Source: Microthyrium microscopicum (taxonomy: Eukaryota). From it: DNA of 64,000 bases. A program made the position numbers and the translations under genes. Location: contig MU004231.1 of assembly GCA_010405405.1 (NCBI GenBank), positions 1,929,784 through 1,993,783 on the forward strand. Reading direction: 5' to 3'. The notes below the pieces were generated by a model, which made no database searches, was not told the origin of the DNA, and saw only the letters and a list, made by a program, of their open reading frames with translations. This document shows, one piece after another, positions 1,364 through 60,515 of the stretch; the first letter of the stretch is position 1; every line of letters starts with the position of its first letter.

Positions 1364-2059
1364 CTATTCCTCGTCCGACGATAAAAGTGAGATGTACTCT
1401 GGTTCAACCTGCATCTGCACATTTTGAACCTGAGCAATACTCGTGGCCTGAGTTACACCACCATGAGTAGTCTGCATGGGAGTCTCAGCGACATGGATAG
1501 CAGTAATATCGGCTTCATCTCCATCCTCTTCACCACTGCCATCGCTGGACTCTTCTTCGTCGGAAGATGACTCAACCTGGATTGCGTTTTGATAGCCCGC
1601 CATCCTGGCATCTTCCTGTTCTTCTTCACCATCCTGCTCATCGTGTTCTTCATCATACACCTCTTCTTCTTCGCCATACACCTCTTCTTCTTCGTCATAC
1701 ACCTCTTCTTCTTCGTCATACAACTCTTCTTCATATACCTCCTCTTCCTCATAGTAATACACCTGCTCATCCTCCTGTCCAGATCCCGGTTCTTCCTCAT
1801 AGTAATACTCCTGCTCATCCTCGTGCGCCAGCTCGTCCTCATTGACCTCTTCCGGTGCTGCTTCATAAGCAAAGTTCTGGACGACAAGTAGGGCGGCTTG
1901 AGGAGCTTGAGGAGCTTGAGGAGCTTGAGGAGCTTGAGGAGCTTGAGGAGCTTGAGGAGCTTGAGGAGCTTGAGGAGCTTGAGGGCCTTCAAAGGGGTGT
2001 CCTGGTGCCTCTTCGACGTGAAGAGAGGAGGCGATTCTAATGGGTTCGATGGAGTCATG
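1364..2059 (-). other. Open frame continuing in frame after the NUP133 TAG: 231 aa, (PQA)10, very acidic, ends ...YISLLSSDEE
   Basis: Manual translation from 2059 (HDSIEPIRIASS...) shows no stop until 1364-1366; same frame as ORF 1364..1762. Confidence 0.45.
1896..1984. repeat. 9-bp tandem repeat (CTTGAGGAG) x~10
   Basis: Directly visible; encodes PQA repeats on the minus strand. Confidence 0.95.
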
Positions 2060-41959: not shown

Positions 41960-42693
41960 ATGGCCTTTCGCATCGAGCCCCTGACCGATGCAGACAAGGA
42001 TGACTTTATGCGAATCCATTATGACGCATTTGAATCAATTTTCCAGGTTTTCTACCACAAACGACCATCCCCAGAGGGATTCAAAATCATGGCAGAGGAG
42101 CGCACCAAAGTCCTCGGGTCACCAGCCACTCGTGCGTTCAAGGCCGTAGATTCGGAAACTGGAAAGATCGTGGCTGCTTCGGTTTGGAAAAGATATCCAG
42201 AAGGAAGATCAAATGAAGAATTTCTGGCCGAATTGGACTCAACAAGCAATTTTGCACCAGAGCAGAACGTTGAAGCTTGGAAGGCGGTGTCAGCTCACCT
42301 TTTGCAATTGAGGATGAATATCATAGGCGCTAGACCACATTTGTTCTTGTCTGGGCTGATCGTTGATCCTGAGTACCAAGGAAAAGGCATTGGTAAACTT
42401 TTGATGCAATGGGGAGTTGAAGAGGCGGATAGGTGAGTAATGCTTACATTAAGATTTCAGTAAGCTGACTTAGCCAGGTATGGACTTTTTGGATACATCG
42501 AATCGAGCGAAGCAGGGAAGCCATTATACGCAAAATACGGATTTAAAGACCTTTGCGCCGTTGACTTTGATATTACCAGATGGGGCTATAGTGATTTCCA
42601 AGTTAATACCGTGAGTAAAGTTCTGGGTTCGTCAGTAAGGAGATCTAATCCGGATAGATCATGGTTCGGGAGCCGAAAGCAATTGGGGCGTAA
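41960..42693 (+). CDS. GNAT-family N-acetyltransferase
   Basis: Motif A VDPEYQGKGIGKLL and motif B ESSEAGKPLYAKYGF. Introns 42433-42477 and 42611-42657; ends IMVREPKAIGA*. Confidence 0.9.
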
Positions 42694-43593
42694 CATAACG
42701 GTTATAGATCCCCAAGTTCGTATTTCAGAATAGTAGCTTATCATTAGAATTTATTGGGAGTCAATTTACTTGCAGTCAACTGACAAGTCATCTCTACTAT
42801 TTATGGCGCTTGCCATATGTGCCAGAAATTTTAGGAAAGAGCACCTAAGAAGCCGGCACGCTAAGGGCGCCACGTTTTCGAGCCACGCGCGTTTGGCGGC
42901 CCAACCCAGTTAGCCGAAACTTTAAACCAACCTCTCAACTTCATGAAACATAACCTCAACTACAGTTCTTGACAGTCGTGAGACTTGAGCACATCTACAC
43001 ATCATTTCCCAATGGCATATCGAAAGCAGCTCATTGCACAGAGCTGCAGTTCAGAATTAGTTCAAAAGAGTCGGCCTCCGAGATGATCAATGCATCATCC
43101 CTGCTTGCATACATGCACACACTCAGCCGCAGCGGCAAAGCAATGCACGCAGGATTCTTTGGCGCTTAGGCAGGCACGTTGTCTATTTTCAAAAACCCGA
43201 CTTATTTTCTCTCTCTGTACCACATGAACACACCAATGACTGGCTTCAGCTGTTGATTAGCCGAGACCCTGACTGTTACGACTGACTAGAGTTCTGGCTC
43301 AAAATATGCATACCTACAAAGCCAGGTTATGGCTCAGTCAGTATACCTAATAGGCGCATGGTATGTTTCAGGTCATTTTCTGGGTCTACGCTAGTATAGT
43401 GCCAATCACTCTATCATATCTGGCGGCAAGCCTGAGCCCAAATACAATCATTTTGGGGTCTAACTAAATATGAATGGATCCAATACAACATTTCAGCTCG
43501 TTGAGTAGTAGCTCGCATGGCTTTATGATTGCAGAAAAATGCTTGCGGCGAGCCACATTGATTCCGCCATACCATCGAACAAAATTGACAATT

Positions 43594-45466
43594 ATGAATC
43601 GGAGCCCACCAGAGTTAAGGATATCCTGGAATCCTGCCTTGGCTCAAGAGGAAGAAGAACCCAAAGGCTTCTGGACAAGATGGTTTGTTGATTGGTGGGC
43701 CTTCGAGATACTGAGTTGGCTTTTCAGCGCAATTTGTGTTGTAATCATCATAAGCGTCTCTCTCAAGTACGATGGTAAACCGGTCCCACAATGGGCAGGG
43801 CTGTCATTCAATGGACTTCTTTCGACGCTATCGGCATTCTTCAAATCAGCTCTACTCCTTCCTACCGCTGAGGCTTTAGGACAGCTAAAGTGGGACTGGT
43901 TCAACAACAAACCCAAGGCTATGATAGATTTTGAGGTTCTTGACAAAGCCAGTCGAGGCGCCTGGGGCTCATTTATGTTGATATCCCGTTCAAAAGGGGT
44001 GTAAGTACTATGAACACCACGACTAGTCCTTCCGGATTGCTTAACTGATGCATCCAAGTAACCTCGCCACTTTCGGTGCAGCAATTATTCTGCTGTCTTT
44101 GCCGTTAGATTTTTTCTTTCAGCAATTTATACAATCTCCAGCTGTATGGGTTCAGACAAACAACGCCACATTGGCAAGATCAGTATATTACGATCCTAGC
44201 CCTAGTGTATATTTTCAGAATGGACAAATGATCATTGACCCAGATGTCTAGATGATTTCCGTTCTGTACTCGAATATGGGTCTCATTGACCCTCTGCCTG
44301 TTCAAGCAAATTATTCGTGTCCAACGAGCAAGTGTACGTGGGCTCCGTTTGATACGCTGGCAATTTGTAGCACCTGCAAACCAACACCCAGCATTCTGAC
44401 CTACAGCTGTCAAGAAACTGCAAATGACTGGATGTTCAAGTCAGAAGTCGTGCCCGGTACCTTTGGCAATGCTACTTCCTGTGGCTGGTTTCTGAATCCT
44501 CCAGCCGGCCCGCCAGTTCTGATGAGTGGAGTCGGTTTCAATCAGACAGTCGACAATACGTCACAGATACTTGTCTCCCGAGTCTTACCTTTAACTGACC
44601 CTTGGACTAGAGAGCATATATATCCCAACGGTACACTCAACTTTAGTGACCTTGATGTGCCTATTGGGGACTTCTTTGTAGCAGCTTCACCAGACGCCGC
44701 GGCCGTCCTTTTGCAACGGGAACCTGAACTGCACGAGTGCGCCATGTGGTGGTGCGTGCAAACAATGCATTCTGAGGTTGTAGGCGGTAGACTCTCCGAA
44801 GTAGTAATGGATAGTCGTCCTGTCCCCGCAACAAACCCTACGGGCCCATGGCTAACTCCAGCGGTTTTCAATACAGAGTATAACTTAACGCTCCAAGACT
44901 CCCACTCGCGAAGTAATCTTTCGATCTTCGGTACCGGCAACTGGACAGGAAGGGAGACCTTGGATGTTATTCAGACTTTTGCCCCCTCAACATGGGTTTC
45001 AGAAGATCCTGATGTTAATTCGACCTGGGGCAAGTTTGCTTGGAGAGGAGGAACCACTAATTCACAATTGGTGCCTGATGACACAAATCCCTGGCTTTCT
45101 ACCACCAATGTTAGTGCAACTATTGATCGATTTGCAAAGCTGTTCTCAACAACTCTGCGAAGGACAGCTCATGGCACTACACATCAATTTGAGACGGTGT
45201 CCGGAAGGGCATACGAGCAAATAGAGCATGTGAGGATTGTATGGGCGTGGATCACTTTGCCTTTAGTTTTGCTTGCGTTCAGTCTTGGTTTTCTGTCCGT
45301 CACAATATGGAGAAGCTCCAATGCAGAAAATACTGGTGTTTGGAAAACTTCAGCGCTTGCTGTCCTGTTCAAGGGGCCCAGTGAGCGCATTCAAAATGCA
45401 ACGGATTCGGCGAGCAGAATGAGACGCCATGCTACAAAAGTCCGCGGCAAGCTCGAAGATGTATGA
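43594..45466 (+). pseudogene. DUF3176 membrane protein copy 1 with in-frame TAG at 44249-44251
   Basis: LGQLKWDWF, DKASRGAWG, CPTSKCTWAPFDTLAICSTC, ECAMWWCVQT, WKTSALAVL. Phase-2 intron 44001-44058. Start uncertain (43474 possible). Confidence 0.8.
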
Positions 45467-46430
45467 TAATATAATCTCACGATTTATGTTACACAAAACT
45501 TTTGGTCCAGATAGCTGGTCTCACTTACCTACATAAGCTCTATCGCCGAAGTAGCTATAATTTGCTGTCATCTGACACACCTCACTTCTCATTGTGCACC
45601 CGTGAAATCTGAGTTCTTTTGTCTCTGCCGCAAAGACCCTCCGTCATCAAGCTATTATAAATTATCATGTAATCATCCCGATTTCACCCAACAACAAATA
45701 ATGCTGTTCTAGCCATCATAACGAAGAACCGACTTGAAGTCCCCCTTTAGGCGTGTTACTTACCTGAGGTAGGTGCAACCCAAATAGTGTCCAAAGTCGG
45801 CTTTATAGTGGGATCCTGAAACAAGCTTGGTAAACGTTTAATTAGCTAGATCATGTATGTTCAGCAATACTACTCTAATTAGATGTAGTGTGTCCTCTCT
45901 TCTATATGTGATCAATTTTCTTCGCTGCTACTTGGAAACAATGCTTCAAATTTCTATTATAGAACAAAAGCACTATGTGTATAAACCTTAACTGAAATTT
46001 AAGGCAAGGCAGCTTAAACTTTTATACTTTATTAATTCAAAAGCTGACTCAAAAAAGTCACGCCACTTGAAGGCTCTTTAACCCTGTAATTTGGACGCAC
46101 TTTTTGCATGCCCTTGTGCACGCCCTTAGACAAAACGGACTATTTTGGGGGAAATTATTGGCTAAACTGCGAATATGTCATAAGAGATATACGGTATCTC
46201 TCAAATCGCATCGAGTCCAAATCCTTACCGCCTCTAAACCTGTCGCGGCGGGGAGTAATGACAGCGGCTGTTGATACATTATCAGAGAACCCAATCCAGT
46301 AGATTAAGGGCTGACTTGCGCACTTCAATGCAAGAGTCAGGTCACATTAGTCGGTTATGTGATTCGAAGTACTTAAGATGTGCCGCTATAGCTTTAACCT
46401 GGACAAAGAACCTGCATCAATTCCCCCAAC

Positions 46431-46631
46431 ATGTACAGACCCACTCTTGTCTTCGTTATTATATCCACCTTGGTATTCAGCGCCATATCAGCTCCAACCA
46501 ACAAACCAAATGCTCAAGAATCTGGAATCGGCATGACCAATGCGGCTTCGCAACAAGATAATCTGAAAAAGAGAGATGGCTTCACCGATGTAGCTTCACA
46601 GAACAACAATATGCTCGGACCGCCGATGTGA
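46431..46631 (+). CDS. Small secreted peptide precursor (66 aa) with KKR Kex2 site and two related motifs
   Basis: Signal peptide MYRPTLVFVIISTLVFSAISA|AP-like cleavage; GMTNAASQQDNL-KKR-DGFTDVASQNNNM. Confidence 0.65.
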   Translation: MYRPTLVFVIISTLVFSAISAPTNKPNAQESGIGMTNAASQQDNLKKRDGFTDVASQNNNMLGPPM

Positions 46632-47058
46632 TGTAAGCCGCATAACACTCAACTGCTGTAAGTTGTTGACGGTCACTCTCATTCTGCCGTAACTGATTAA
46701 CAAATTGATCATAGTGGGTGTTAATATCAATTCAACGATGTTTCCTTGCCAACTTCCCAAAGCAGAAAGCTCTCATAGGCGCACCAGATTATTGACTTAC
46801 ATATCCATCTACAGCTTGATAAAACCAATTCTATCATATTCATTTCCTAGTTCTTGTATCTCTGACGTTTTGAAGCTGAAGAAAGTTCTCGAACTGACAA
46901 GTCGGTTTATGATAGAGCACAGTGACCAATGTTAATCCTACACATAAGCATGATCCTGTAATGTTATTATAAGATATTCAAGAGATTGAGCTACGCTGAT
47001 TCCAGGTAATCATTTACTTCAAGACTACTCAGATTCTTATCCTATATGTATAATTTAG

Positions 47059-49810
47059 CTACCTCACAGCCCATAACTTGATAGTTTTATCTCCAGATGC
47101 GGATGCAAGAACAAAGCCATCTGGCGAAAAAGCCACACTCCTGACTATCTTGCTATGACCACTGAATGTCTGTCTAGGAGTCTCTCCCCGCCTCAAGTCC
47201 CAAACTTTGACGGTTGTATCAGCTGAAGCAGAGGCTACCAGATAGCCATTGGCAGAGAAGGCTATACCACGGATCGAGTCAGTATGACCATTGAGTGTTT
47301 GTTGTGCGTACTTTAGCCGGCTATCCCACAACTTGATGGTACCATCCGCAGATCCCGAGGCCAAAAGCCCGCTTGCTGAAAAGGCCACACCATAAACATA
47401 GTCACAGTGACCTTCTAGTGTTTGCTGCAAGTCTCCTCGTAGTGTGTCCCAAAGCTTTATAGTCTTATCACCCGATCCAGACGCTAAAATAGTCCCGTCT
47501 CGAGAGAAGGACACATCTCGCACCACATTGTCATGCCCCTTTAGAGTATGACTTTTGGTACCTGACCGTAAATTCCACAGCTTCACAGTTTGATCTGTTG
47601 ATGCGGAAGCCAGTCTCGATCCATCAGGTGAAAACTCAAGTCCCCACACTGAGTCATTGTGTCCGTTTAGTGTCTGTTGTTCGACTCCCAACTGCGCGTT
47701 CCAGATTTTAATGGTCCTATCCATCGACGCTGACGCCATTGTTAAGCCATCAGGTGAAAATTTCACATCTCGAACCGCGTTCTCGTGTGACTCAAGAGTA
47801 TACCGCTCCGCTCCTAGGCGCAAGTCCCACAGCTTTACACTTCTATCGGCTGAACCGGATGCGACGAACAAGCCGTTTGGAGAGAAGGCCACGCTCCACG
47901 TAGAGTCAAGATGGCCTTTGAGGGTTTGCTGTTTTTGCGCCGGTATGCTTCTCCACCAACCCGCCTTTTTGCTTTTGAGTAATGGCTTTGTTGCGATGAC
48001 ACATTTCTCGCCGAGCAGATTGCTTGATATTCTACACGCTAGACTTTTTGAAGAAGCGTTTGGTAGACCCTTTTTGAATAGGGTGAAAGACTCCTCGTTG
48101 ATATATGAGTCATCGTAACCATCGTGACTATCGTGACGAGTTCTTGATGATTGATGAATTGCTATTGTTTGAACTTGTGCCCGGGAGCCGGTAAGCATTC
48201 TGTTATCTGGTTGCTTTGCGGATTGTTCCAGGGACTCCTCAGGCCCATCATTTCCATCCCCTGGCCTTGCTTCGACTTCCATGGCCTTTAGGCAATACAA
48301 CTGTATGGGACTGGTTTCTGACTGGGAAAGCTGGCACAGAATGGCATGATATATCCCTGCATCGTTGTCTCTACCGCACAGCTGAAGTATACGAATGAGA
48401 TTTCGCAGAGCCTGTAAGCAGCAATCTAGCTGGCGGGGATATTGCTTTCTGAATCCCTTATAGGCTCGCCGAGCATAGAGAAGAGCTTCTGTCAAATGGC
48501 TTTTCTCCACCAAGATTTCTGAAAGCATCAAAGTATCTTGAAGATGAGGAGCGCAGCTTTCAAGAACATCGGAGGAGGCCACAAAAGCAATCTTCTCCCT
48601 CAGCAGCTTTTCCGCTTCGTCCCACTTTCGTTGTGCTTTAAAGGCGAGAATCAAGCATGACAAGACCTCAATATGTAGAAAATGGAGGTCTTCATTGTTT
48701 CTCCTTCTTTTTTTCTTCTTAAGCCACTTGACACAACTTTTTAGATCCGCTTCAGCCTCGCTGGATTTGCTTGCGTGAAGTTTGGCTTTGCCTTGCTGAA
48801 ATAGTGCGAGAATAAGTTCCGATTCTTCCTCGTCAGCTGGATCTCCATCGCTTGCTACCTCCGTTTGTTCATCGCCATGTCGATCTCTTTTCATGAAGGC
48901 ATTGGAGGAATGATCAGAAGCGTCATCAATAGAAGTTCGTTCATGTGATTTGATCCAGTCAATCATCAAGGTGTTCGGTCGGGGAAGAAAAGCTTCTCCA
49001 AAATCTGACAAGCAGAGAGTGTTTCGTTGACCATCATTGCCGTTACTGACTACAGTTGACGCCGAAGAAACCACACTGGCTGCAGAATTCAAACAGGTGC
49101 GTAGGTGATCCAATTGTTTGAATTGTGCGGATTGTTTCTTTGATGTACGCTCCTTGTTTCCAAGCTGGGTGTTTGATTTCATCTTTTCTTCCATGGAGGC
49201 TAGTCGATAGTTCATGTCAATAGCCAGCTCCTGTATCGTTGAATTTACTTGATTCAAAGTTGGGAGCCCAACCTGAAGAGCTTCGCTAGTAGAAGCTTGG
49301 TGCCATCTAGTGATTGTTTGGTCAGCAATAGATTCTGGGGTCACTGATATCTGTGTCAAGGACTTACAACAATGTCGTTTGTAAGGAAACCTGAATTGTA
49401 TCTTTGTAGGAGCGTATCTGCTGCTGATATACAGCAATTTCATGGGTGGCCGCATGGAGTCTAATGTGCTTTCGCGTAGAGTCTAAGAGATTCACATGCT
49501 TGTTGACGCGTACAATTGTGGTCTGAAGCGACTTGAGCGTTCCTTCCGCATCATCCAAAGACGTTTGAAGATGGCGCCAATGTGAGGTTAGACTTCCCTC
49601 AGATCTTAGAGAACTCTTTACTTTCGGTTCATCGATTATGTCTGTAACTTGGTCCAATATCTTCTCGAAGGCCGTGACTTCTTGCAGAAGCCCATTAATT
49701 GCTGTCCCAACTAATTTCGTGCCGCTAATAAATTTCTTCAACTCCCAGCCGAGCCCGCTGCAGAGGCTTGCAATGGTGAGCGACGAGACGACAATTGATA
49801 AGGGATCCAT
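47059..49810 (-). CDS. Fungal N-terminal (HeLo-like/STAND N-term) domain, TPR-like helices and 7 HET-type WD40 repeats, ~896 aa
   Basis: MDPLSIVVSSLTIA N-terminus; phase-2 intron 49367-49307 joins the ORFs; seven ~42-aa TLxGH...VAFSPDG..LASxSxDxTxKxW repeats. Confidence 0.85.
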
Positions 49811-50520
49811 GAGTTGGTAAGTTTATCAAAAATTCCATTGCAAACAGATCATTCCAAGTGATGAAAGCTGGACTACACTTGATGAACAAGAACGTTTGAC
49901 GCAAGAATCAGATTTAGTTGAACTTCTCCTTAGCTCAAAAGTTAATGATCATCTCGAAGATAGTGGAGCCGCTACTCGAGGCGCTATAGATAGCGCGTAA
50001 AGGCTGGATGGCGGCCCGCGCCTCGATCTAGGCTGTTTTGGGATGTTTATGTTTCAGATTGCTGCATGTCGAGCGTTCAGCGCTTGTTTAAGCTCTGCCA
50101 TTTGCGCTTGGCTTTGCGGCGCCTTGGGTCCTGCGAGGCGATCATTCACTCACTCATTCCTAATGGGCCAAAATGCCATCAGCCGACTTGCTTTCAAGCT
50201 TTACTGCAAGCCTACCCAGAACAGAATTGTGTACTTGGTGCTAATGGCGATCGCTTAGAAAGTAGAAGTACTTCCTAGTAAGATGTCTTAGATATGGTCT
50301 TTATTGGCCAGTCAGACAGGTGCCGTGCTTATACAGACTCTAACAAAACTAAAGTTTTTCTCTATCACCTATTAGTGCCTGTTTATGCAGCTTTATCATG
50401 TGCTGTGGTTGACCTCCAGAGTTCCTCGTCTTTCGCAACATACTTCAGCTCTGGCAGAAGCGCAACAGTGTAACTTATACATCTAGACAAAACCGGATCG
50501 CAAAAGCTCAGAAAACGAAA

Positions 50521-52619
50521 ATGGCTGGCCAGCCTTCTATCTCTGAGCAAGCAAGCCCACAATCTCCTACCAGTCCAATACCTGAGCCGGATACTCAATC
50601 AATAACCTCAACTCGTCAATACTCTGATAATGGTCTCAGCATAAACAACGACACATATTATGCAGAAACAAAATCTTCAGGCTCTTTTCAGACTTTCTAT
50701 ATCGCCTCGCAGCAACGAAAGTCTATAGGATCAAAACCTTCCGAATCATCTGCACAAAACCATGAACACTTGGAGATGGACCAACCCGGCTTCTGGAGAA
50801 AATGGTTCCTAGAATGGTGGGGAATTGAGCTTCTGAGCTTAGGCTTCAGCGCACTATCTATGGTTATTATCCTGATAGTACTTGCGCAATATGATGGCAA
50901 AGGACTACCTCAATGGAAACTCGGCATTTCAATAAATGCTTTTATATCCATCTTTGCTGGATTTACCAAATCGGCTCTTTTACTCCCCACTGCACAGGCT
51001 CTTGGCCAGTTGAAATGGAATTGGTTTACCAAATCTCGCCCTATGCACGATTTTGAGCTCTTGGACAGTGCTAGTCGAGGGCCTTGGGGCGCTCTACTCC
51101 TCCTTGGTCGCATGAAAGGAATGTGAGTTACATCTTTGTTAGGTTCGTTCTTTAAAGAGTTGACTAATTCCTTCAAAGTACACTGGCGTCCATTGGGGCT
51201 GCTATAATTCTGCTTTCTGTACCGCTTGATCTTTTCTTTCAACAAATAGTGCAGTTTCCTACGGTCTGGATTGTATCTGGGGATGCAACCCTCGCTCGGA
51301 CAATCTATTACAACCCGGTTCCAAATGAATACTATGTACAGGACGATACTGTTTACTCGCCAGATCCTACTACTGATTCTGCGGTTGAACCACTTATTTG
51401 GTCAACGGGCAATCCTCAGCAAGTTCGTTCCAGCTGCCCCTCTAGAAGATGTACGTTTGAACCGTTTGAGAGCCTTGGGGTGTGTAGTTCATGTATCGAA
51501 CTACCCGACTTACTCAAATTTGGTGTTCGAAATGTTGTTGACAATTGGTCTGCGGATTCGGTGGCTAACCCAAACTTGGATAATCTCACAAACACGCCAT
51601 CTGTCGGATGGTATTTGGAAGCACCTGGTCAAGATCCGATCCTGATGGCAGGATATTCTTATCAGTCGAATGATACCTTAACTCCCAAGTCCATCCTCAG
51701 AGGAAGGATTGAACCCATGCGGGAAATGTTCACCAGACAAGCAAGATTCCCCGGTGGGACCATCAACTTTCACAACATTACAAATCCATTGGCAGACTTC
51801 CTCATTGCATTCAATCTGGGAATTTTAGGTAGCTCGGATAGTGGGATATTTAATCAGACGCCCGTTGTTCACGAATGCGCTCTGTATTGGTGTGTACAAA
51901 CCATACAGGCTCGCTTGGAGGGCGGGATCATTGCTGAAAACATCACTGCCACCCGCCAGCTTGTTTCAAGCCACGCTGATGATCCGTGGGACCCGGATAC
52001 TAAGACGTTTCTGACAAATTTCACACTCACAAAGCCTGACTTACAGAACCCGAAGGGAGCGCTATTAAACTTCGGAGTCAGCAATATCACAACTCGCACA
52101 ACGATCCAGGTTTCAGAAATATTCTCTCCTTCTAGCTGGACAGAGTTCAATGGTGACACTACGATGGCGAAAGTGAATTGGAGAGGCAACCCATTCTACA
52201 ATCGTCCCGTTGCAAATTCAGCGAACCCATGGAGCAGTCACAACGATCCAGTCGCGCATGTTGCAGCGATTGCTGAAGAGATGAGCAAGGCAATGCGGAA
52301 CACTCCCCAAGGAGCGACTGATACATACGATCTTGTGATTGGAAAAGCATGGGAAGAACAGATCCGAGTGCATATTATATGGGCTTGGATCGTACTGCCA
52401 GCGGTGCTAATGGCTATAAGTTTTGTTTTTCTGGCAGCGACAATGGCTCGAAGTTCAAGAGATGATTTCATTGGAATTTGGAAGACTTCGGCGTTAGCAA
52501 TCTTGTTCAACGGTTTTGGGGATGATGTACAGAGGAAGATAGGAGGCTCTTCTACGGAACGTTTAGGACAAGCCAAAAGAACGGCTAAAGATTTGACCGT
52601 CAGATTAGAAGAGGACTAG
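50521..52619 (+). CDS. DUF3176 membrane protein copy 2, ~680 aa
   Basis: LGQLKWNWF, DSASRGPWG, CPSRRCTFEPFESLGVCSSC, ECALYWCVQT, WKTSALAIL. Phase-2 intron 51123-51178. Confidence 0.85.
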
Positions 52620-53183
52620 TGAGAAAACGCAATATCTTCAGTCTGAGTAGCTTAACAAAAACCATTTCAGCAGACATGTCTGATTTGCTAAAGTTGGCCA
52701 AGTGGCATTGAAAATCATGCAGATGTCCAGTTCTGTTTTGGGAACGTGGATGAGGCTGACTGCGGCGATGTAGGCGCTTAGCCAGAAATTCCATCTGAGG
52801 GGCCGCTTTGGAGGCGTCTGCAGGATGCAGCTGCATTAGTCCTCTGTAAAGTAGTACTTACAAGGTATAGGTTCCTTCAGGTAGACCGCTTGAACCAGGC
52901 GGCTATGCATCTATAAACTCCAATGCGGCTACAAGGCAATGTTGCGATGGAATGAATAATAGTGTAGAGATTCTTTCTTGTTTATGCGTAAGACTCCTAG
53001 AGCAATGTTCTATAGCATACTGTGCAGATTGCAAAGAAAGGAAGTGGTTGACCTCGCTGCTTTCTGATTTGCTTTAGTATAGACTGGTCTATTGGATCTT
53101 GCATTTCTTCCATCATTGTCTTTTCACTCCTTATGCTGGTATACTACAATCTGATCATTGTGCTTTGATCTCTATTCCAGAAC

Positions 53184-55346
53184 ATGGCCCACCTTTCTGT
53201 TCAGAGTCAGACTGTTCTAGATGAGCATCTCTCCTTATCCCCAAGGACACCAGATTTAGGTCAATTCCCTTCGCCAGTCAATTACGGATCAGTCACACCC
53301 ACGTCAGAACATCATCCTTTTTCAGAAAGGAGTTCGACCCAATTCCAAAAATCCTTCGTGGAGAAGTTCCAGAATACGTCGGCAAACTTCACCTTCAACT
53401 CCAAAGGAGACGAACAATTATCACAAAGTTCGGCAAGCCATACCGTCGGAAGTCGACTTCAGCGAGAAATTGAGGATGGTTGGCTATGGGAAGCTCTCAG
53501 CTGGGTGATAAGTGCGGGCTGTATGCTAGCACTAACTGTTCTTCTGGGGCTTTATAACAACAAGCCTTTACCGGCAAGGTGGCCTTCTGGCATCAGCCTG
53601 AACGCCGCTATATCTGTACTTTCTAGTATCGGAAAATATGCTCTCTCAGTCCCACTGGAGAACTCGCTTGGCCAGCTGAAGTGGATCTGGTTTCGAAGCA
53701 AAAAGACAAAAAAATTGATCGATCTAGAAAGATTTGACGAAGCAAGTAGAGGACCATGGGGTGCTTTTCTTCTACTGTGGCACATCAAAGGAAAGTAAGT
53801 GTTGAGCGATTCAACGATCCTTATACTTGTTGCTAAAACGAGGAACAGAAAACTTGCCTCGTTCGCCGCCGTAATAACCATCTTATCTCTGGCAATGGAT
53901 CCCTTTTTCCAACAAATTGTTGCATATCCGCAAAGGCCAGGCGAATTCGGTAAAAGCACGATTACGAGAGCCGTAAAGTTCTTCACTCACGAAAACCTCG
54001 AGTACGCCAATGGAGGAAACTATAGTATTTCAGATGAGAGTATGTGGAGTGCTATGGAAAGCGCATACTTCGGTGACGGTAAAGAGTCAAAAATTGACGC
54101 ATTCTGCCCTACATCAAACTGCCAATGGCCAGAATTCCAGACTTTGGGAGTTTGCAGCAAATGCCATGACGCCTCCGAGCTGCTTCAATTTGGATGCATG
54201 CCAGAACGAGGGGAGTGGTTGACCCAGAGAAGCACAGCAATGCTGGGAATCAATCAAACAATCAGTACTGCACCAGTCCTATCTTGCGGATGGTTCTTCA
54301 ATGCCAGCTCTGAAGATCGTATGCTGATGAGTGGATATGTCTTGGATAATACCACATCGCCCCCAAGTCCTGGAGAGGCTCTTTTCATACGCTCTTTAGC
54401 TACTGCTACACCTGCAGATGCTGACAACGTCACTTACTGGGATCGATCCTACTATTACAAGAATGAGTCAAATGCCTTGCCATTTTGGGACTTTCTGGTT
54501 GTGATGAACAAAAACGTATCTTCGGTGTATCTACATGAACGCCCAGAGGCTGCTGAATGTGTTCTGCAATGGTGCGTCAAAAACATCACTGCGTCGGTCA
54601 TCAACGGAGAGTACAAAGAGGAGATTGTCTCGACATTCATCAACGAGACTCAGGTTGGCTATCCAGCTCGCCACGAATCCAAATGGAGGCCGCCTGGAAC
54701 TTCATACATGCATGGTGTAGCAGATGTTATCATCGAGCCCCCAGGACAGGATGAGCAATTCTTCGTCCCAGACTATACGGTGTTCCAGACGGTCAACCCT
54801 TTCTACTGTTTTATTCCATCATATATGACAGTGGCAAATATCACAGCAAATCCACTTATGCGAGTTGATAACAAGAATACAGGTGGAATGGACAATTCCT
54901 ACATACTGAACTTCAATCTCACTGAATGGTCAAAACCAAGCAACATATCCGTCTGGTCGGACATAATGGCAACTGCAGTTACAAACACTATTCGAAGTTT
55001 TCCAAACAGTTCTGAGCCAGTTCCCGGTTTCGGAGGACTGGAGACTTATATTCACATTCAGTGGGCTTGGATATCACTGCCGGTGATCATATTATTTGGC
55101 ACGGCTATGTTACTAATCTGTGTCATTATCACCGGACCAACAAAACAAGAAGGAGGAGTGTGGAAAACCTCTCCGCTTCCAATGTTACTTCATGGACCCA
55201 GTTCACAGCTGCGAGCAGATTTTGGAGATGCATGGAGTATGTACGATATGAGAAGGAAGGCCAGGCAGGTGGATGTCGTCCTCAGGGAAGAAGTAGATGG
55301 ATTAAGGTTTCATCCTGATAAGAATGGAAGTTATGCTGAGAAATGA
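53184..55346 (+). CDS. DUF3176 membrane protein copy 3 (most divergent), ~702 aa
   Basis: LGQLKWIWF, DEASRGPWG, CPTSNCQWPEFQTLGVCSKC, ECVLQWCVKN, WKTSPLPML. Phase-2 intron 53795-53848. Confidence 0.85.
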
Positions 55347-56628
55347 ACGGGTTGTGTACTAACCAAGATAACAAGATCTGTACATAGGTAGTTCATTATT
55401 CTTTCTGTTCGCTTGATGTGCACATGATGAAGCAGGTCTACATTACAATATCCAAGATGAAGCGACTTCTGGAGTTTTTCATCAACGGTCATTCGCTTCA
55501 AGATTTTGGTCAGCTGCAAGCGAAGTGGAAGTCGTAGGGATTGGCCAGCACTTAGAACTGACTGCAAGCATAATGCAAGTTCTTGTGATCAGTGGCCAAC
55601 TGGATCAAAAGGCGATGTTCCTGCATTGCAGGCTGCAGTATTTCTGCCATGCGATGTGTGAGAATATTATGAGTAGAGTGCAGGCTCCTCACTGCCAGCC
55701 TCTGAAGTTAGAAAGGACGGTTTGGTGCAAAGTCCTTACAATTGAGCTCAACGATGGCGAAAAAGGGTAGGTGTTTACCAGCATAACAGGTAGCATCGAC
55801 TTCTCCAAGTGAGGTGGGCCGAAAGCTTGAGCCAATGGCAAACATCGCGTTATCCGCCGAGTGAAGGTTCCAAAAATTCCTCAAACACTTCCCTCTCTCT
55901 GGGCGTAAAAAGGCCGCTGAAGGGGCCGCTGGAAATCATGCGAAGGCGGGGTTTCTTAAGGAAAAAGAAGCAGACAAGCAGGTTTTTAACCAGGCGGATA
56001 AAAATATCTCAAGGGCGACCGTCGAATCCGGGGGTTGGGCTGTGCGAGAAGAGCTGCCAGTACTGGGAACCTATCAAAGCGCGTTGGCCGGCGCGTACGT
56101 GCATATGCAAAGCCACTCTGTTTGCCGTGATTGGCGATGTCTCGTTTAAGCTCATCGAATAACAAAGTCTGCGTCTAGAAATCCAAGTTGATTTGCTCTT
56201 ACAGCTCCAACTCTACCGAGAAGCAGGACTCATGATCCAAGAAGTGTCCGAGCAGACTGCCCGCGATGTACATATTTTACCGCTTCGAATGCAACTCCGC
56301 CCCACGCGATGCCTGTTACGGATGTCAGATAGGCCGCGGATGTTGACCACCTGCAACATTGAACCTACAGAGACTATCCTCGCCGCAGGATCCTAAATGC
56401 AACCAATTTGCAAGATGCGGGCTGGACCTCATAGGCATATCTAACTGCATGTCTACCCCTCCCACCCTGTTGTTGGTGTTGTACTCGGGTCCACACTTGC
56501 AATCGTGATCTTCAGTAACCTGTTGTAGCACCAAATTAGCTTCAAGAGGTCGATATTCATCTGTTTTGTTCTTTGCCATACCCATCTCTATCACTGATCC
56601 ACATCACCCTGAGTGGTGTTGCTCTACC

Positions 56629-59330
56629 ATGGTCGATTCTCAATCAAGCAACATTAAACAGTTTATTCGAAGTGGAAAGTTCTCAAAACGTCTCAACCTG
56701 AACCGACCAAGAGCACCAGAGCCATCCCTTTCCACCATTCACTCCGCGGGGTCAGACGAAGAAGATGGCAATTCCACTGACATTGAGGATTTTCCGGAGG
56801 AGAAGAATGGAGTAGTGAAGGCGGTAGCAAGGGAGGACAATGCAGCCGATGGCTCTGAGTCTACGAACAATCCACAAGGTGGAAGGTTAGTCACTGGTCA
56901 AAGACCACTTCTATCTGGTGTTCTTTCCAATATCGCCAACCTCGCCAACCGGAGGTCAAATACCAGTCGGACCTCTACAGCAAGCCGGTCAAGTCGGACA
57001 TCAATGTCCACACGTTCTTCAATTGCTTCTTCTACTGGCGGGCTGCCAACCATAACAGAAATCCCTCCTCTGCCCGGGCTTGTTTCCGATCACGGTTCAT
57101 TGCCGCCAACATCAGAACCACCCTCAACTCCGCCTTTAGAAGACCACATTATGCCGGTAATACCTCCCCATCCAGGTTTCACCCCAGTCCAGCAATGCGA
57201 TAACAGCGACACTCATTCCCAAGGTTCAACACTTGTGGGATCTCCACCTCGTCACAACGGAAACTCTCAGATACCTCCATATTCTATTTCTGATGTATTT
57301 GCAAACTCACCACCTCCTCCTATGCCCTCATGGCCATTGCCATCAGATACAATGAGCGAAAAGAGTGGCAAGAGCTCTCTACCTTTAACAGCTTCGCCTC
57401 ACTCTTCGCACTCCTTTGCCTCAACTCCAGCCTATAGCCCACCCTCATATTGTCAGCCTTTTGGGGATAGTAATGCCCCTGGCTCAAGATTCTCATGGCA
57501 TGTTACACCAGTCGATCGGGCTCGAAACTGGTTTACTATTTGGTTCGTAGAATGGTGGGCCTTTGAAATCATTAGCTGGCTGTTTAGTGCAGTTTGCATG
57601 GCGATTATCTTGGGCGTTTTGTTCCGTTATAACAACAAAGAAATACCCCATTGGAGAATCGGCTTTACTCTTAATGCTTTCATTTCAATACTCTCGGGGT
57701 TCGCCAAATCTGCTCTTCTTCTTCCGACGGCAGAAGCGCTCGGACAACTCAAATGGAATTGGTTTACCAAGAAATCTAAAGCCATGCTAGATTTCGAAGT
57801 CCTTGACAGTGCTAGTCGCGGACCTTGGGGCTCTATGGTGTTGCTCGCACGAACTAAGGGAGTGTAAGTCTGACATGGTTGACAACCTACCGCCGATATG
57901 CTAATGTACTTTACAGAACCCTTGCCTCAGTTGGTGCAGCCATTATCCTGCTCTCATTACCGCTTGATCTATTCTTCCAACAGATTGTCCAGTATCCCAA
58001 CGTAATGGTCGCACTGGGAAATTCAACTCTCACAAGATCGGTGTATTATGACCCTATTCCAGAAACAGTCTTGCAAAGCGGCTCTACGATCACGAACCCG
58101 AACGCGCAAATGGTCGCCAACCTGTGGGAGATGATAACTGCCAAGCAGCCTTTGCTCACGTCGCCTAACTTCACTTGCCCAACCAGCCAATGCAATTTTC
58201 AACCATTTGATACCCTTGCGATATGTAGCTCATGCACAGCGGTACCGGGCCTTCTTGAGTACGGCTGCAAGAATGCTACCAATGAGTGGATGGCTGACGC
58301 ATCTACTGACCCCGACGACTTTACTAATACAACTGCCTGCGGATGGTATCTCAATCCTCCAGGACAAACTCCCATCTTGATGAATGGATATGCCTACAAC
58401 GCTTCTACTCAAACGCCTGGAGAAATCCTTGTTTCAAGAATCGTGCCATTGAGAGACATTTGGACTCGAAAACCCGTCCTTCCCAATGCCACTATCAACT
58501 ATGGGGACATTATCAATCCGTTGGGCGATTTCATTATTGCGTCATCTCCGGATGCCAAGTCTGTTCTTTCAAACAAGCCTCCTGAAGTTATCGAATGTGC
58601 AATGTGGTTTTGCGCGCAAACACTCAGGTCTCAGATTAAAAATGGACAGCTCTCAGAGCAGATTCTGAAGACTCAAGTAGTACCTCCAACGAATACTGGT
58701 AATCCTTGGAAGACATCTGCTTGGTACGACAACTCTTTCAACCTTACTCTTCCAGACTCCCGCAGCTCAAGTGGCTCATCTGTGTATGGAACTGGGAATT
58801 GGACGGGCCGAACCACTTTGGACATAGTACAAGATTTCGCTCCTTCGACCTGGACCAGCCAATCCAGCCAGGATTCAACAATCGCAGGGAAATTCAATTG
58901 GAGATCAGGTACGCCAGACGTGAAAACGATTCCTTTGGAGACCAGTCCCTGGATCACGACTTCGAATGTTACCCATAGCGTGACAACAATGGCAGAAAGC
59001 ATGTCCGCTGTCTTGAGACGAACTTCACATGGCTACTCAAATCAATTTGAGTTTATCCAAGGAATAGCCTACGACGTCAGGACTCACGTTCAGATACGAT
59101 ATTTCTGGATCATCCTACCTGCATGTTTGCTACTCTTCAGTTTTGTTTTTTTAATGGCGACAGTCCTCAAGAGCTCGAAAGATGATAAGAAGATTGGCGT
59201 TTGGAAGAATTCGGCACTCGCGGTTCTGTTCAATGGTCCATCTGATGACGTTCAAGACCGAATGGGCAGTCAGCTCAAGTTAGGCTCTGCAAGGGAGAAG
59301 GCACGGAATATTCGAGTGACGTTGGATTGA
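56629..59330 (+). CDS. DUF3176 membrane protein copy 4 with long Ser/Pro-rich N-terminus, ~882 aa
   Basis: LGQLKWNWF, DSASRGPWG, CPTSQCNFQPFDTLAICSSC, ECAMWFCAQT, WKNSALAVL. Phase-2 intron 57864-57916. Confidence 0.85.
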
Positions 59331-59880
59331 TAAACCAATGGCTGCTTGCTTTCATCCGAAATTATGTAATACCCATGAGACATGTTTATACGTTCAAATA
59401 TTATACTTCACCTTTCTTAATTACGGAGTACATCATGAGACCATATTGACCTAGGCGAGTCCTCGGTTTACGGAATGTCTTGCAACGTCGAGGTTCCGAT
59501 TATGGACTCAATTCTATTAACAATTAGTAGAAACACATTGACACACCTTGACCGCCGAGGAAATAGGTAACCGTCTGAAAGTCAGGAAAAAGGCCAGGCT
59601 TGCTTTTCTACCAATAAAATCTGCCAAGCGTACGGTCATCGAATACGGCAAGTCAATCTGCACCGGCACCAGCAGCAAATCACTACGGTCATGCTAAGAG
59701 AGGGCTGAGGTGTTCAAGATATCTCGACCTGGTACGCCAGGCCGAAATGTAGCATATAATTGAAGTAATGAGTTGCCTCGTTCCATTCCTAATTTGAGAC
59801 CAGTCCACTATGACAGAAGAAATTTTTGAGCTAAAAGATGTATCCCAACCAAAAGTATATACAGAAATTTGTTGACATGA

Positions 59881-59940
59881 AAGAATCGAAGAGTCGAAGA
59901 ATTGAAAAGTCGAAGAATTGAAAAGTCGAAGAGTTAAAGA
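59881..59940. repeat. 8/16-bp degenerate repeat (GTCGAAGA/ATTGAAAA) downstream of the repeat-peptide gene
   Basis: Directly visible. Confidence 0.7.
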
Positions 59941-60081
59941 TGTGTACAGTGAACGGAGGTTGGTCGAAAATGCTGGACTCGAGGAGCTCCTGGCTCTTAA
60001 GTCTGAATGTATAAGCTGCTGACACGATTAGCTCAATCAATGGTTGACAAGGCAGTATCATCTGAAAACTCACGATCGTCC

Positions 60082-60515
60082 TCAGTATCCGCTTTGCATG
60101 GCATCTTTACGCTTCTCCTTGTAGCCACTTTGCATGGCATCTTTACGCTTCTCCTTGTAGCCACTTTGCATGGCATCTTTGCGCTTCTCTTTGTAGCCAC
60201 TTTGCATGGCATCTTTGCGCTTCTCTTTGTAACCACTTTGCATAGCATCCTTGCGCTTCTCCTTATAGCCACTTTGCATGGCGTCTTTGCGCTTCTCTTT
60301 GTAGCCGCTTTGCATGGCATCTTTGCGCTTTTCCTTTACAAAGTGCTCTGTCTGCATATATGTCAGTATGCATGGTTCGTATGTCTGGACTTTCAACTTA
60401 CGCCTTCACTTCTGACAGCCATCGGAGCTATTGTACTGATCGAAGAGACAGGGGCGGCACTAGCTGTCCAGGCTAGAGCAGCGGACAATACCAGAAGAAG
60501 ATTGACTTGAACCAT
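60082..60515 (-). CDS. Kex2-processed repeat protein (KEP; RiPP- or pheromone-like precursor), 127 aa, 7x KR-KDAMQSGY(KE)
   Basis: Exon 1 60515-60402 encodes signal peptide MVQVNLLLVLSAALAWTASA|APV...SEG. 50-nt phase-0 intron 60401-60352 (GTAAGT...CTGAC...CAG). Exon 2 has seven 36-bp repeats. Confidence 0.9.

What the first reader, a model, noticed from the sequence alone, without database searches (positions are those of the whole stretch)
41960..60515. Four DUF3176 membrane proteins clustered with two secreted Kex2 peptide precursors, a HeLo-like/WD40 protein and a GNAT: candidate peptide signalling or RiPP locus
Seen: four same-strand paralogues share one phase-2 intron position (after KG), conserved TM and cytosolic motifs, and divergent Cys-scaffolded, NxS/T-rich ectodomains of ~350 aa. 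One precursor gene lies ~1 kb after copy 1 and the other ~750 bp after copy 4. Known: characterised KEP-derived RiPPs (ustiloxin, phomopsin, asperipin-2a) rely on neighbouring DUF3328/UstYa oxidases, and I see none here; I know of no assigned function for DUF3176. Inference: DUF3176 proteins may be receptors, channels, immunity factors or secretory-pathway maturases for the linked peptides, with the HeLo-like protein as a possible cell-death output. The association could also be coincidental in an accessory island.
Basis: partly seen in the sequence, partly recalled or inferred. Interest (0 to 1): 0.75.

Follow-up and report, generated by a model that had tools for sequence, protein, structure and literature searches.

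The report
Fungal peptide–membrane sensor gene pairs
A fungal family of membrane proteins of unknown function repeatedly sits tail-to-tail with small genes for secreted, rapidly changing peptides, which suggests an undescribed peptide signal and its sensor.

Summary
The anatomy is real.

The link to peptides is conserved. D1, D2 and D4 belong to one DUF3176 clade. In 4 of 5 informative metagenome loci of that clade, a small secreted Kex2-type precursor lies convergently 218–478 bp downstream, each with a different core. Background was 0 repeat precursors in 400 kb of this genome. Verruconis gallopava shows the same adjacency by accession, but 10 of 11 annotated loci missed a published KEP list.

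No DUF3328 oxidase was found within about 1.3 Mb, and no conserved metal motif, so this is not a ustiloxin-type cluster. The predicted fold is four membrane helices plus a glycosylated ectodomain with no PDB match. Its nearest look-alike is DUF3433, the family of the Neurospora allorecognition protein CWR-2 (predicted models only; no sequence homology).

Best reading (about 50%): linked peptide ligand and cell-surface sensor. Nothing ties in the HeLo or GNAT genes. This scan noted the same module in another genome (e1-7702245).

The parts
41960..42693 (+). GNAT acetyltransferase, two introns; neighbour, not shown to belong to the module
   Evidence: PF00583; joints 42430-42476 and 42610-42658
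43474..45466 (+). D1: DUF3176 paralogue, intron 44001-44058, premature TAG at 44249-44251, probable pseudogene; start codon uncertain (43474, 43525 or 43594); sister of D4
46431..46631 (+). KEP-A: 66-aa secreted precursor, two imperfect 12-mers around one KKR; 3' UTR intron 46658-46714
47059..49810 (-). HeLo-like (PF17111) N-terminus, helical middle, WD40 repeats; 896 aa, intron 49307-49367, no P-loop motif; link to module unsupported
   Evidence: 10 PF17111 matches genome-wide
50521..52619 (+). D2: intact DUF3176, 680 aa, intron 51123-51178; peptide-linked clade
   Evidence: identical to P0004; AF2 model; tree
53184..55346 (+). D3: intact DUF3176, 702 aa, intron 53795-53848; second clade (with V. 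gallopava KIW05859 and Trichodelitschia KAF2403482)
56629..59330 (+). D4: intact DUF3176, 882 aa, long Ser/Pro-rich cytosolic N-terminus, intron 57864-57916; convergent with KEP-B
   Evidence: (P0050)
60082..60515 (-). KEP-B: 127-aa precursor, signal peptide, intron 60352-60401, seven copies of core KDAMQSGY separated by KEKR; very deep RNA cover
   Evidence: single copy in the genome
62023..64000 (.). Start of a RIP-degenerate hAT-type DNA transposon bounding the locus (TIR and 8-bp target duplication; right end about 8.4 kb from its start, beyond the window, across an N gap)

Best explanation
A Dothideomycete clade of DUF3176 proteins and small secreted Kex2-processed precursors form linked ligand-sensor modules.

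Shown: gene structures, splicing, and a recurring tail-to-tail link with cores that differ from locus to locus.

Predicted: four membrane helices with a roughly 375-aa Cys-bridged, glycosylated ectodomain between helices 3 and 4. The conserved charged residues lie mostly in the membrane and cytosolic part.

Inferred from established Kex2/Kex1 biology: KEP-B is cut in the Golgi into about seven copies of a short, probably linear peptide and secreted.

Inferred: the variable ectodomain of D4 (perhaps with D3, as a pair equal to the two halves of an 8-TM CWR-2-like protein) binds the peptide at the cell surface. The conserved membrane/cytosolic part passes the signal on, for self/non-self recognition or colony-level signalling. 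D1 with KEP-A looks like a decaying duplicate of the module. The HeLo/WD40 and GNAT genes are probably bystanders.
For: Metagenome linkage: loci were chosen by receptor motifs, blind to neighbours. The 8 loci collapse to 6 places, 5 with usable downstream DNA. A convergent precursor lies 218-478 bp away in 4 of 5: repeat KEPs in L086, L088 and L085/L091, and a single-core one in L087.

Background: 0 repeat KEPs in 400 kb (327 kb genic) of evenly spaced stretches of this genome. P(at least 3 of 5) is about 1e-4 with lenient bounds.

Annotated genomes: V. gallopava KIW05857 is next to KEP KIW05856, listed without DUF3328. Near-consecutive accessions show DUF3176 pairs in 6 genera.

Clade specificity: the window copies score 264-668 bits with the clade profile; the other DUF3176 loci fetched score 92 or less.

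Ligand variability: L087-type precursors keep the leader and vary the C-terminal core.

Fold: AF2 pLDDT 85.6 for D2 and 95.9 for the D4 ectodomain. With DUF3176 and CLZ1_N left out, 22 of 30 nearest Atlas clusters are DUF3433 (score 0.95; TM 0.56 over 449 residues). CWR-2 has two DUF3433 domains, 8 TM and two large specificity-bearing ectodomains, and is linked to its secreted partner CWR-1 (PMC12135175).
Against: Accession test: only 1 of 11 testable loci lies next to a KEP in the published table (against 59, 60). About 0.03 were expected by chance. The table lists only annotated tandem-repeat proteins, so single-core partners are missed, but the link is clearly not universal. L089/L090 has no precursor within 2.6 kb.

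Independence: L085, L086 and L089 are close relatives, so 4 of 5 overstates independence. The background comes from a different genome.

Homology: no sequence-level homology to DUF3433 (hmmsearch at most 0.1 bits; hhalign probability at most 2.3%). Both sides of the Atlas match are predicted models.

Stoichiometry: D2 and D3 have no precursor of their own. Most DUF3176 genes here have none: 1 of 12 other loci has a KEP-like gene, and it has UstYa neighbours.

No localisation, phenotype or co-expression data.
Confidence: 0.5

Rival explanations
1. DUF3176 acts in the secretory pathway as a maturase, chaperone, exporter or cell-wall anchor for the linked peptide, making this a DUF3328-free RiPP-like cluster.
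For: Tight linkage resembles KEP-DUF3328 clusters, where the count peaks at the adjacent gene (PMC7329392 section 7). The ectodomain could face the lumen. KEP-B and the L088 core end in Gly-Tyr. An Atlas neighbour family, CLZ1_N, is by my recall named after a gene of a biosynthetic cluster.
Against: No HxxHC motif, and no His column above 43%. Conserved polar residues sit mostly in the TM/cytosolic part, and the ectodomain is the least conserved region (0.38 against 0.56 and 0.53). Cores share no residue to modify: the L086, L087 and L091 repeat or terminal cores lack Tyr.
Confidence: 0.17
2. The peptides are antagonistic (antifungal or antibacterial), and the DUF3176 proteins are linked immunity or decoy factors; or they are non-self sensors that fire only on foreign peptides.
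For: Hypervariable cores and ectodomains, very deep RNA cover of KEP-B (about 20,000 at its intron joint against 58-640 for D1-D4 contigs, contig depth only), and a locus bounded by RIP-degenerate repeats. CWR-1/CWR-2 act in trans between haplogroups.
Against: The cores are short, acidic or neutral and not amphipathic. No population data were available.
Confidence: 0.15
3. The HeLo-like/WD40 protein (and the GNAT) is the intracellular output of the module, for example cell death.
For: It lies between KEP-A and D2, is intact and spliced, and has a PF17111 N-terminus.
Against: There are 10 PF17111 matches in the genome, and only this one is near a DUF3176 match. It has no P-loop motif. I saw no such gene in the short metagenome loci, but did not scan them against Pfam.
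Confidence: 0.1
4. Coincidence: a large gene family and small secreted genes collecting in a repeat-bounded island.
For: The family is huge (7387 clusters at E up to 0.001). The island lies between RIP blocks. 10 of 11 accession tests were negative.
Against: Same orientation and a gap under 800 bp in the window and in 4 of 5 blind-chosen loci, plus V. gallopava adjacency, against 0 in 400 kb of background.
Confidence: 0.08

Closest known systems
Neurospora crassa cwr-1/cwr-2 allorecognition locus (CWR-2, DUF3433/PF11915)
   Same: A linked secreted gene and a multi-TM protein with large variable ectodomains. CWR-2 (8 TM, small ED1/ED3, large ED2/ED4) has the layout of two DUF3176 units. DUF3433 is the nearest Atlas family after DUF3176 and CLZ1_N.
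   Different: The partner is an AA11 monooxygenase, not a processed peptide. The Pfam family differs, no sequence homology was detected, and polymorphism and function were not tested here.
KEP plus DUF3328/UstYa RiPP clusters (ustiloxin, phomopsin, asperipin-2a, epichloecyclin)
   Same: Signal peptide plus Kex2-separated repeated cores; an adjacent partner gene; Tyr in the KEP-B core.
   Different: No DUF3328 found within about 1.3 Mb and no tyrosinase among 40 open frames to the right. The partner is a 4-TM protein without a metal motif.
Ascomycete alpha-pheromone and Ste2 GPCR
   Same: A multi-copy, Kex2/Kex1-released peptide, proposed to act on a surface receptor.
   Different: No XA/XP STE13 run after KR in KEP-B, no two-Cys or PYGXPXG core, and the putative sensor is not a 7-TM GPCR.
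Orphan KEPs without DUF3328 (6120 of 7878 in PMC7329392)
   Same: KEP-B fits the definition, and V. gallopava KIW05856 is one of them.
   Different: The passages read name no cognate membrane partner; DUF3176 does not occur in the main text or the three supplements held.

Membership tests
DUF3176 (PF11374) | Pfam match above the cut-off | tested here: met
   90-97 bits against a cut-off of 27 for all four exon-1 frames
KEP (Umemura 2020) | ER signal peptide | tested here: met
   Both precursors pass my crude hydrophobicity rule; SignalP was not available
KEP (Umemura 2020) | Highly repeated cores separated by Kex2 sites: KEP-B | tested here: met
   7 identical cores, each preceded by KR
KEP (Umemura 2020) | Highly repeated cores separated by Kex2 sites: KEP-A | tested here: inconclusive
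   Two imperfect copies and one KKR; the repeat is beyond chance (1 of 2000), but my detector missed it
Ustiloxin-type (dikaritin) RiPP cluster | DUF3328/UstYa gene among the nearest 15 genes | tested here: not met
   22 genome matches, nearest on this contig at 671 kb against the window at 1.93-1.99 Mb (a lower-bound search); none in the 40 right-flank frames or the 19 window frames
Ustiloxin-type (dikaritin) RiPP cluster | Tyr in the core | tested here: met
   KEP-B core ends in GY; KEP-A repeats have no Tyr
Ustiloxin-type (dikaritin) RiPP cluster | Cyclised or modified product | not testable with these tools
   Needs mass spectrometry
CWR-2 / DUF3433 | PF11915 domain | tested here: not met
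   0 of 32 aligned members match PF11915 at E up to 10
CWR-2 / DUF3433 | Shared fold and topology (4-TM unit, large ectodomain before the last helix) | tested here: inconclusive
   Atlas TM 0.56/0.53 over 449 residues between predicted models; profile comparisons negative
CWR-2 / DUF3433 | Linked AA11 monooxygenase ligand | tested here: not met
   No such Pfam hit among the window frames scanned; the linked genes are peptide precursors
Allorecognition locus | Haplogroups under balancing selection; fusion block | not testable with these tools
   One genome, no relatives held
Alpha-pheromone precursor | STE13 XA/XP spacer and two-Cys or PYGXPXG core | tested here: not met
   Sequences against features read in PMC6339444
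Fungal NLR (STAND) | NACHT/NB-ARC domain with P-loop | tested here: not met
   No GxxxxGK[ST] in the spliced HeLo-like/WD40 protein; only the best 25 of 57 Pfam families were shown

The most novel reading that the evidence does not exclude
DUF3176 proteins are an unrecognised, non-GPCR class of fungal peptide receptors, distant structural kin of CWR-2. Tandem D3/D4-type pairs rebuild an 8-TM sensor and read the hypervariable peptide encoded next door as a self/non-self or quorum signal. This would give a function to a very large family and cognate receptors to part of the orphan KEPs.
Probability: 0.4. Interest if true: 0.9.

Novelty: categorically new. Interest (0 to 1): 0.74.

Why it matters
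PMC7329392 finds that 78% of fungal KEPs have no DUF3328 neighbour. PMC6339444 speculates that many are hormones with unknown receptors. A physically linked candidate sensor makes that question testable pair by pair, because ligand and receptor are named by the genome. It would also give a first function to DUF3176 (7387 clusters at 50% identity) and a first structure for an ectodomain with no PDB match. If the DUF3433 resemblance holds, it offers a simpler model for how CWR-2 senses its partner.

Tried and rejected
- Complex prediction of the D4 ectodomain with three KEP-B repeats: no answer (score 0.00 twice, alignment not used, peptides untested by the tool). Not used as evidence either way.
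- Fold searches: Foldseek found no match at E up to 0.001 for D2 or the D4 ectodomain. VIA-align gave only generic four-helix bundles for D2 (best Z 10.3, rmsd 3.1, 122 aligned) and best Z 3.3 (rmsd 5.8, 67 aligned) for the ectodomain. This does not prove a new fold.
- Sequence tests for DUF3433 homology: negative.
- Viral and prokaryote collections: no relatives.
- RNA: no holder on record as RNA was listed. The one run laid (X1) is RNA by its 11 spliced joints, but it is contigs, so levels cannot be ranked. GNAT and D1 share one contig, which does not show a single transcript.
- C9 locus (DUF3176 convergent with a His/Lys-rich repeat precursor): set aside as support, because two UstYa genes flank the precursor and that DUF3176 is remote from the clade.
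- Lepidopterella (absent from the table), TLD29628 (no TLD accession in the part read) and the KAE/KAF/KAH accessions (not testable against the table) were dropped before the 1-of-11 count.
- First tree run did not finish; the FastTree run was used. The WD40 repeat-identity calculation used the wrong frame and is not reported.
- The crude signal-peptide scan is noisy, and its background run stopped early, so it gives no rate.
- Literature searches: 'DUF3176' gave 1 listed paper with an unrelated passage; the DUF3433/PF11374 search and the KEP-receptor search showed no DUF3176-peptide link. Most subscription journals are not searched.
Full report
SETTING. The window is C2:1,929,784-1,993,783 of a 37-Mb fungal assembly. 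Protein P0004, labelled Microthyrium microscopicum, equals my D2 model letter for letter. The finding lies in a gene island of about 22 kb between a 30-kb RIP-type AT-rich block (about 10-39.5 kb) and a RIP-type element from 62,023. That element has terminal inverted repeats and an 8-bp target duplication, as a hAT does.

OBSERVATION. Four DUF3176 genes are present, each with a phase-2 intron after KG. Contigs of run X1 splice all four introns, and also those of the GNAT, KEP-A (3' UTR), the HeLo-like gene and KEP-B. D2, D3 and D4 are intact (680, 702 and 882 aa). D1 has a TAG at 44,249-44,251, with no other letter and no intron there in the RNA contigs. The aligned residue in D4 is Gln, so a RIP-type C-to-T change is plausible (inference). 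Identity among the paralogues is 46-68% in TM1-3 but 23-46% in the ectodomain. KEP-B has a signal peptide and seven copies of KDAMQSGY and is single-copy. KEP-A has two imperfect 12-mers around one KKR (1 of 2000 shuffles as good).

NOT A USTILOXIN-TYPE CLUSTER. UstYa has 22 matches in the genome; the nearest on this contig is about 1.3 Mb away (a lower-bound search). None of 40 open frames of at least 130 aa in the 50 kb from the window's right end matches UstYa or tyrosinase. As a positive control, my detector found repeat precursors at 4 of 11 UstYa stretches, plus one at C9. DUF3176 has no HxxHC motif and no His column above 43% in a 150-row alignment.

LINKAGE, EVIDENCE FOR. A metagenome scan with two receptor motifs examined 347 stretches and confirmed 8 loci. 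L085/L091 and L089/L090 overlap, giving 6 places; L084 ends 23 bp after the match, leaving 5. Four of the 5 carry a convergent secreted precursor 218-478 bp after the stop. L086 has about eight QEFFDNDVG-type cores. L088 has four GDLGNGGSDGGY-type cores. L085/L091 has imperfect acidic repeats. L087 has a single Cys-containing core after KR. The window gap is 751 bp. The same repeat detector found 0 hits in 40 evenly spaced 10-kb stretches of this genome (327 kb genic). With the upper bound on that rate, at least 3 of 5 has P of 1e-6 to 1e-4. Relatives of the L087 precursor (4 of 4 candidates) keep the leader and differ in the C-terminal core. In V. gallopava, DUF3176 KIW05857 is next to KEP KIW05856, with a second DUF3176 at KIW05859. 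Consecutive or near-consecutive accessions show DUF3176 pairs in six genera: Trichodelitschia, Aulographum, Eremomyces, Aaosphaeria, Dendryphion and Verruconis (accession order is taken as gene order). A FastTree tree of 70 rows puts D1, D2 and D4 with KIW05857 and all six metagenome rows (support 99), and D3 with KIW05859 and one Trichodelitschia copy (99). The other four pairs do not split this way. The window copies score 264-668 bits with the clade profile; the 12 other DUF3176 loci fetched score 92 or less.

LINKAGE, EVIDENCE AGAINST. Of 11 loci testable against the published KEP table, only the V. gallopava one is adjacent. The misses are KIW05149, KIW01028, KIW04791, QDS69498, QDS77460, QDS72551, TID18948, RDI81201, RDI77711 and OAL53943. 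Chance expectation is about 0.03, so one hit is only mildly significant. The table needs an annotated tandem-repeat protein and would probably miss L087- or KEP-A-type partners, but I could not check the DNA. L089/L090 has no precursor in 2.6 kb. L085, L086 and L089 are close relatives, and the background is from another genome. Of the 12 other DUF3176 loci in this genome (about 10 kb each side), only C9 has a repeat precursor, and it has two UstYa neighbours.

WHAT DUF3176 LOOKS LIKE. AF2 (pLDDT 85.6) gives a disordered N-terminus, membrane helices at 91-124, 138-168, 203-222 and 602-628, short juxtamembrane helices, and a beta-rich domain at about 226-600. The D4 ectodomain alone models at pLDDT 95.9 and has 9 NxS/T sites, so it is lumenal or extracellular (inference). 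Conservation is 0.56 in TM1-3, 0.53 in TM4 and tail, and 0.38 in the ectodomain, as expected for a variable sensor on a conserved transducer. In the ESM Atlas, with DUF3176 and CLZ1_N set aside, 22 of 30 nearest clusters are DUF3433; by structure TM is 0.56 over 449 residues (one source). CWR-2 of N. crassa has two DUF3433 domains, 8 TM and two large ectodomains that set allelic specificity, and it is linked to secreted CWR-1 (PMC12135175). One DUF3176 unit matches half that layout. Direct sequence tests with DUF3433 genes of this genome were negative. So 'works like CWR-2' is a lead, and membership is not met.

HELO-LIKE GENE AND GNAT. The 896-aa protein has a PF17111 N-terminus and WD40 repeats but no P-loop motif. 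PF17111 has 10 matches in the genome, and only this one is beside a DUF3176 match. Nothing links either gene to the module, though the metagenome contigs are too short to test this.

MECHANISM. Shown: genes, splicing, recurring linkage, no oxidase found nearby. From established knowledge: Kex2/Kex1 release of the cores (PMC6339444). Predicted: the fold. Inferred: surface binding and signalling (0.5). Rivals: secretory-pathway helper (0.17), immunity or antagonism (0.15), HeLo output (0.1, not exclusive), coincidence (0.08).

LITERATURE SEEN. PMC7329392: passages, section 7, supplement list, Table S2 parts 1 and 38, and term searches. PMC12135175: passages and Discussion. bioRxiv 10.1101/2022.06.26.497659: passages. 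PMC6339444: passages. bioRxiv 10.64898/2025.12.20.695554: one passage. Others: listings only. No DUF3176-peptide link was found in these searches. Figure 6 of PMC7329392 (domains near KEPs) is an image I could not see and may bear on novelty; so may supplements I did not open, closed bioRxiv supplements and subscription journals. The origin of the name CLZ1 and the HxxHC motif of UstYa are recalled, not from a call.

EARLIER SCAN NOTES. After my linkage result, one search showed an unchecked note of the same module in another genome (e1-7702245) and a note on this stretch (e1-7501882). They are not counted as support.

VERDICT. A real, conserved and apparently unpublished pairing of orphan secreted peptides with a structurally unassigned membrane family. 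The function is inferred. Interest 0.74.

Noticed in passing
L044:1199-9773 and L045:3-470 (G000:C9, about 1.829-1.838 Mb): TRI12-type transporter, two UstYa genes, a His/Lys-rich repeat precursor (DPHHAAAKGAKKGK units after EAR) and a convergent, remote DUF3176: a candidate RiPP cluster with an HH-type core.
   Followed up: partly
L075:2467-2742, L077:2243-2584, L082:6766-7665, L083:47-772: Four further repeat precursors beside UstYa genes, with Trp- or Tyr-rich cores.
   Followed up: no
window 41960-45466: The public annotation fuses GNAT and D1 into one 847-aa protein (P0240); the RNA joints do not support it.
   Followed up: yes
window 60016-60073 and 46658-46714: Both precursor genes have 3' UTR introns; KEP-B's has two alternative acceptors 3 bases apart.
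   Followed up: no
window about 10000-39500: A 30-kb AT-rich block (about 20% GC, RIP signature) with an N gap and a long simple repeat near 27.7-28.7 kb separates Nup133/Pan3 from the UBX gene.
   Followed up: no
L132-L137 (G000:C1, C11, C15): DUF3433 genes come in two forms: with large ectodomains (C11, C1 near 1.90 Mb; CWR-2-like) and with almost none (C15, C1 near 2.23 Mb). Neighbours were not examined.
   Followed up: partly
G000:C5:941722-944406: A second tandem pair of DUF3176 genes, from a remote subfamily, with no repeat precursor detected nearby.
   Followed up: partly
window 1364-2059 (-): An acidic low-complexity frame with PQA tandem repeats next to Nup133.
   Followed up: no
L070:1603-2703 and L070:6916-8946: Beyond the hAT element lie a ferritin-like secreted protein and a PIR-like cell-wall protein.
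   Followed up: no
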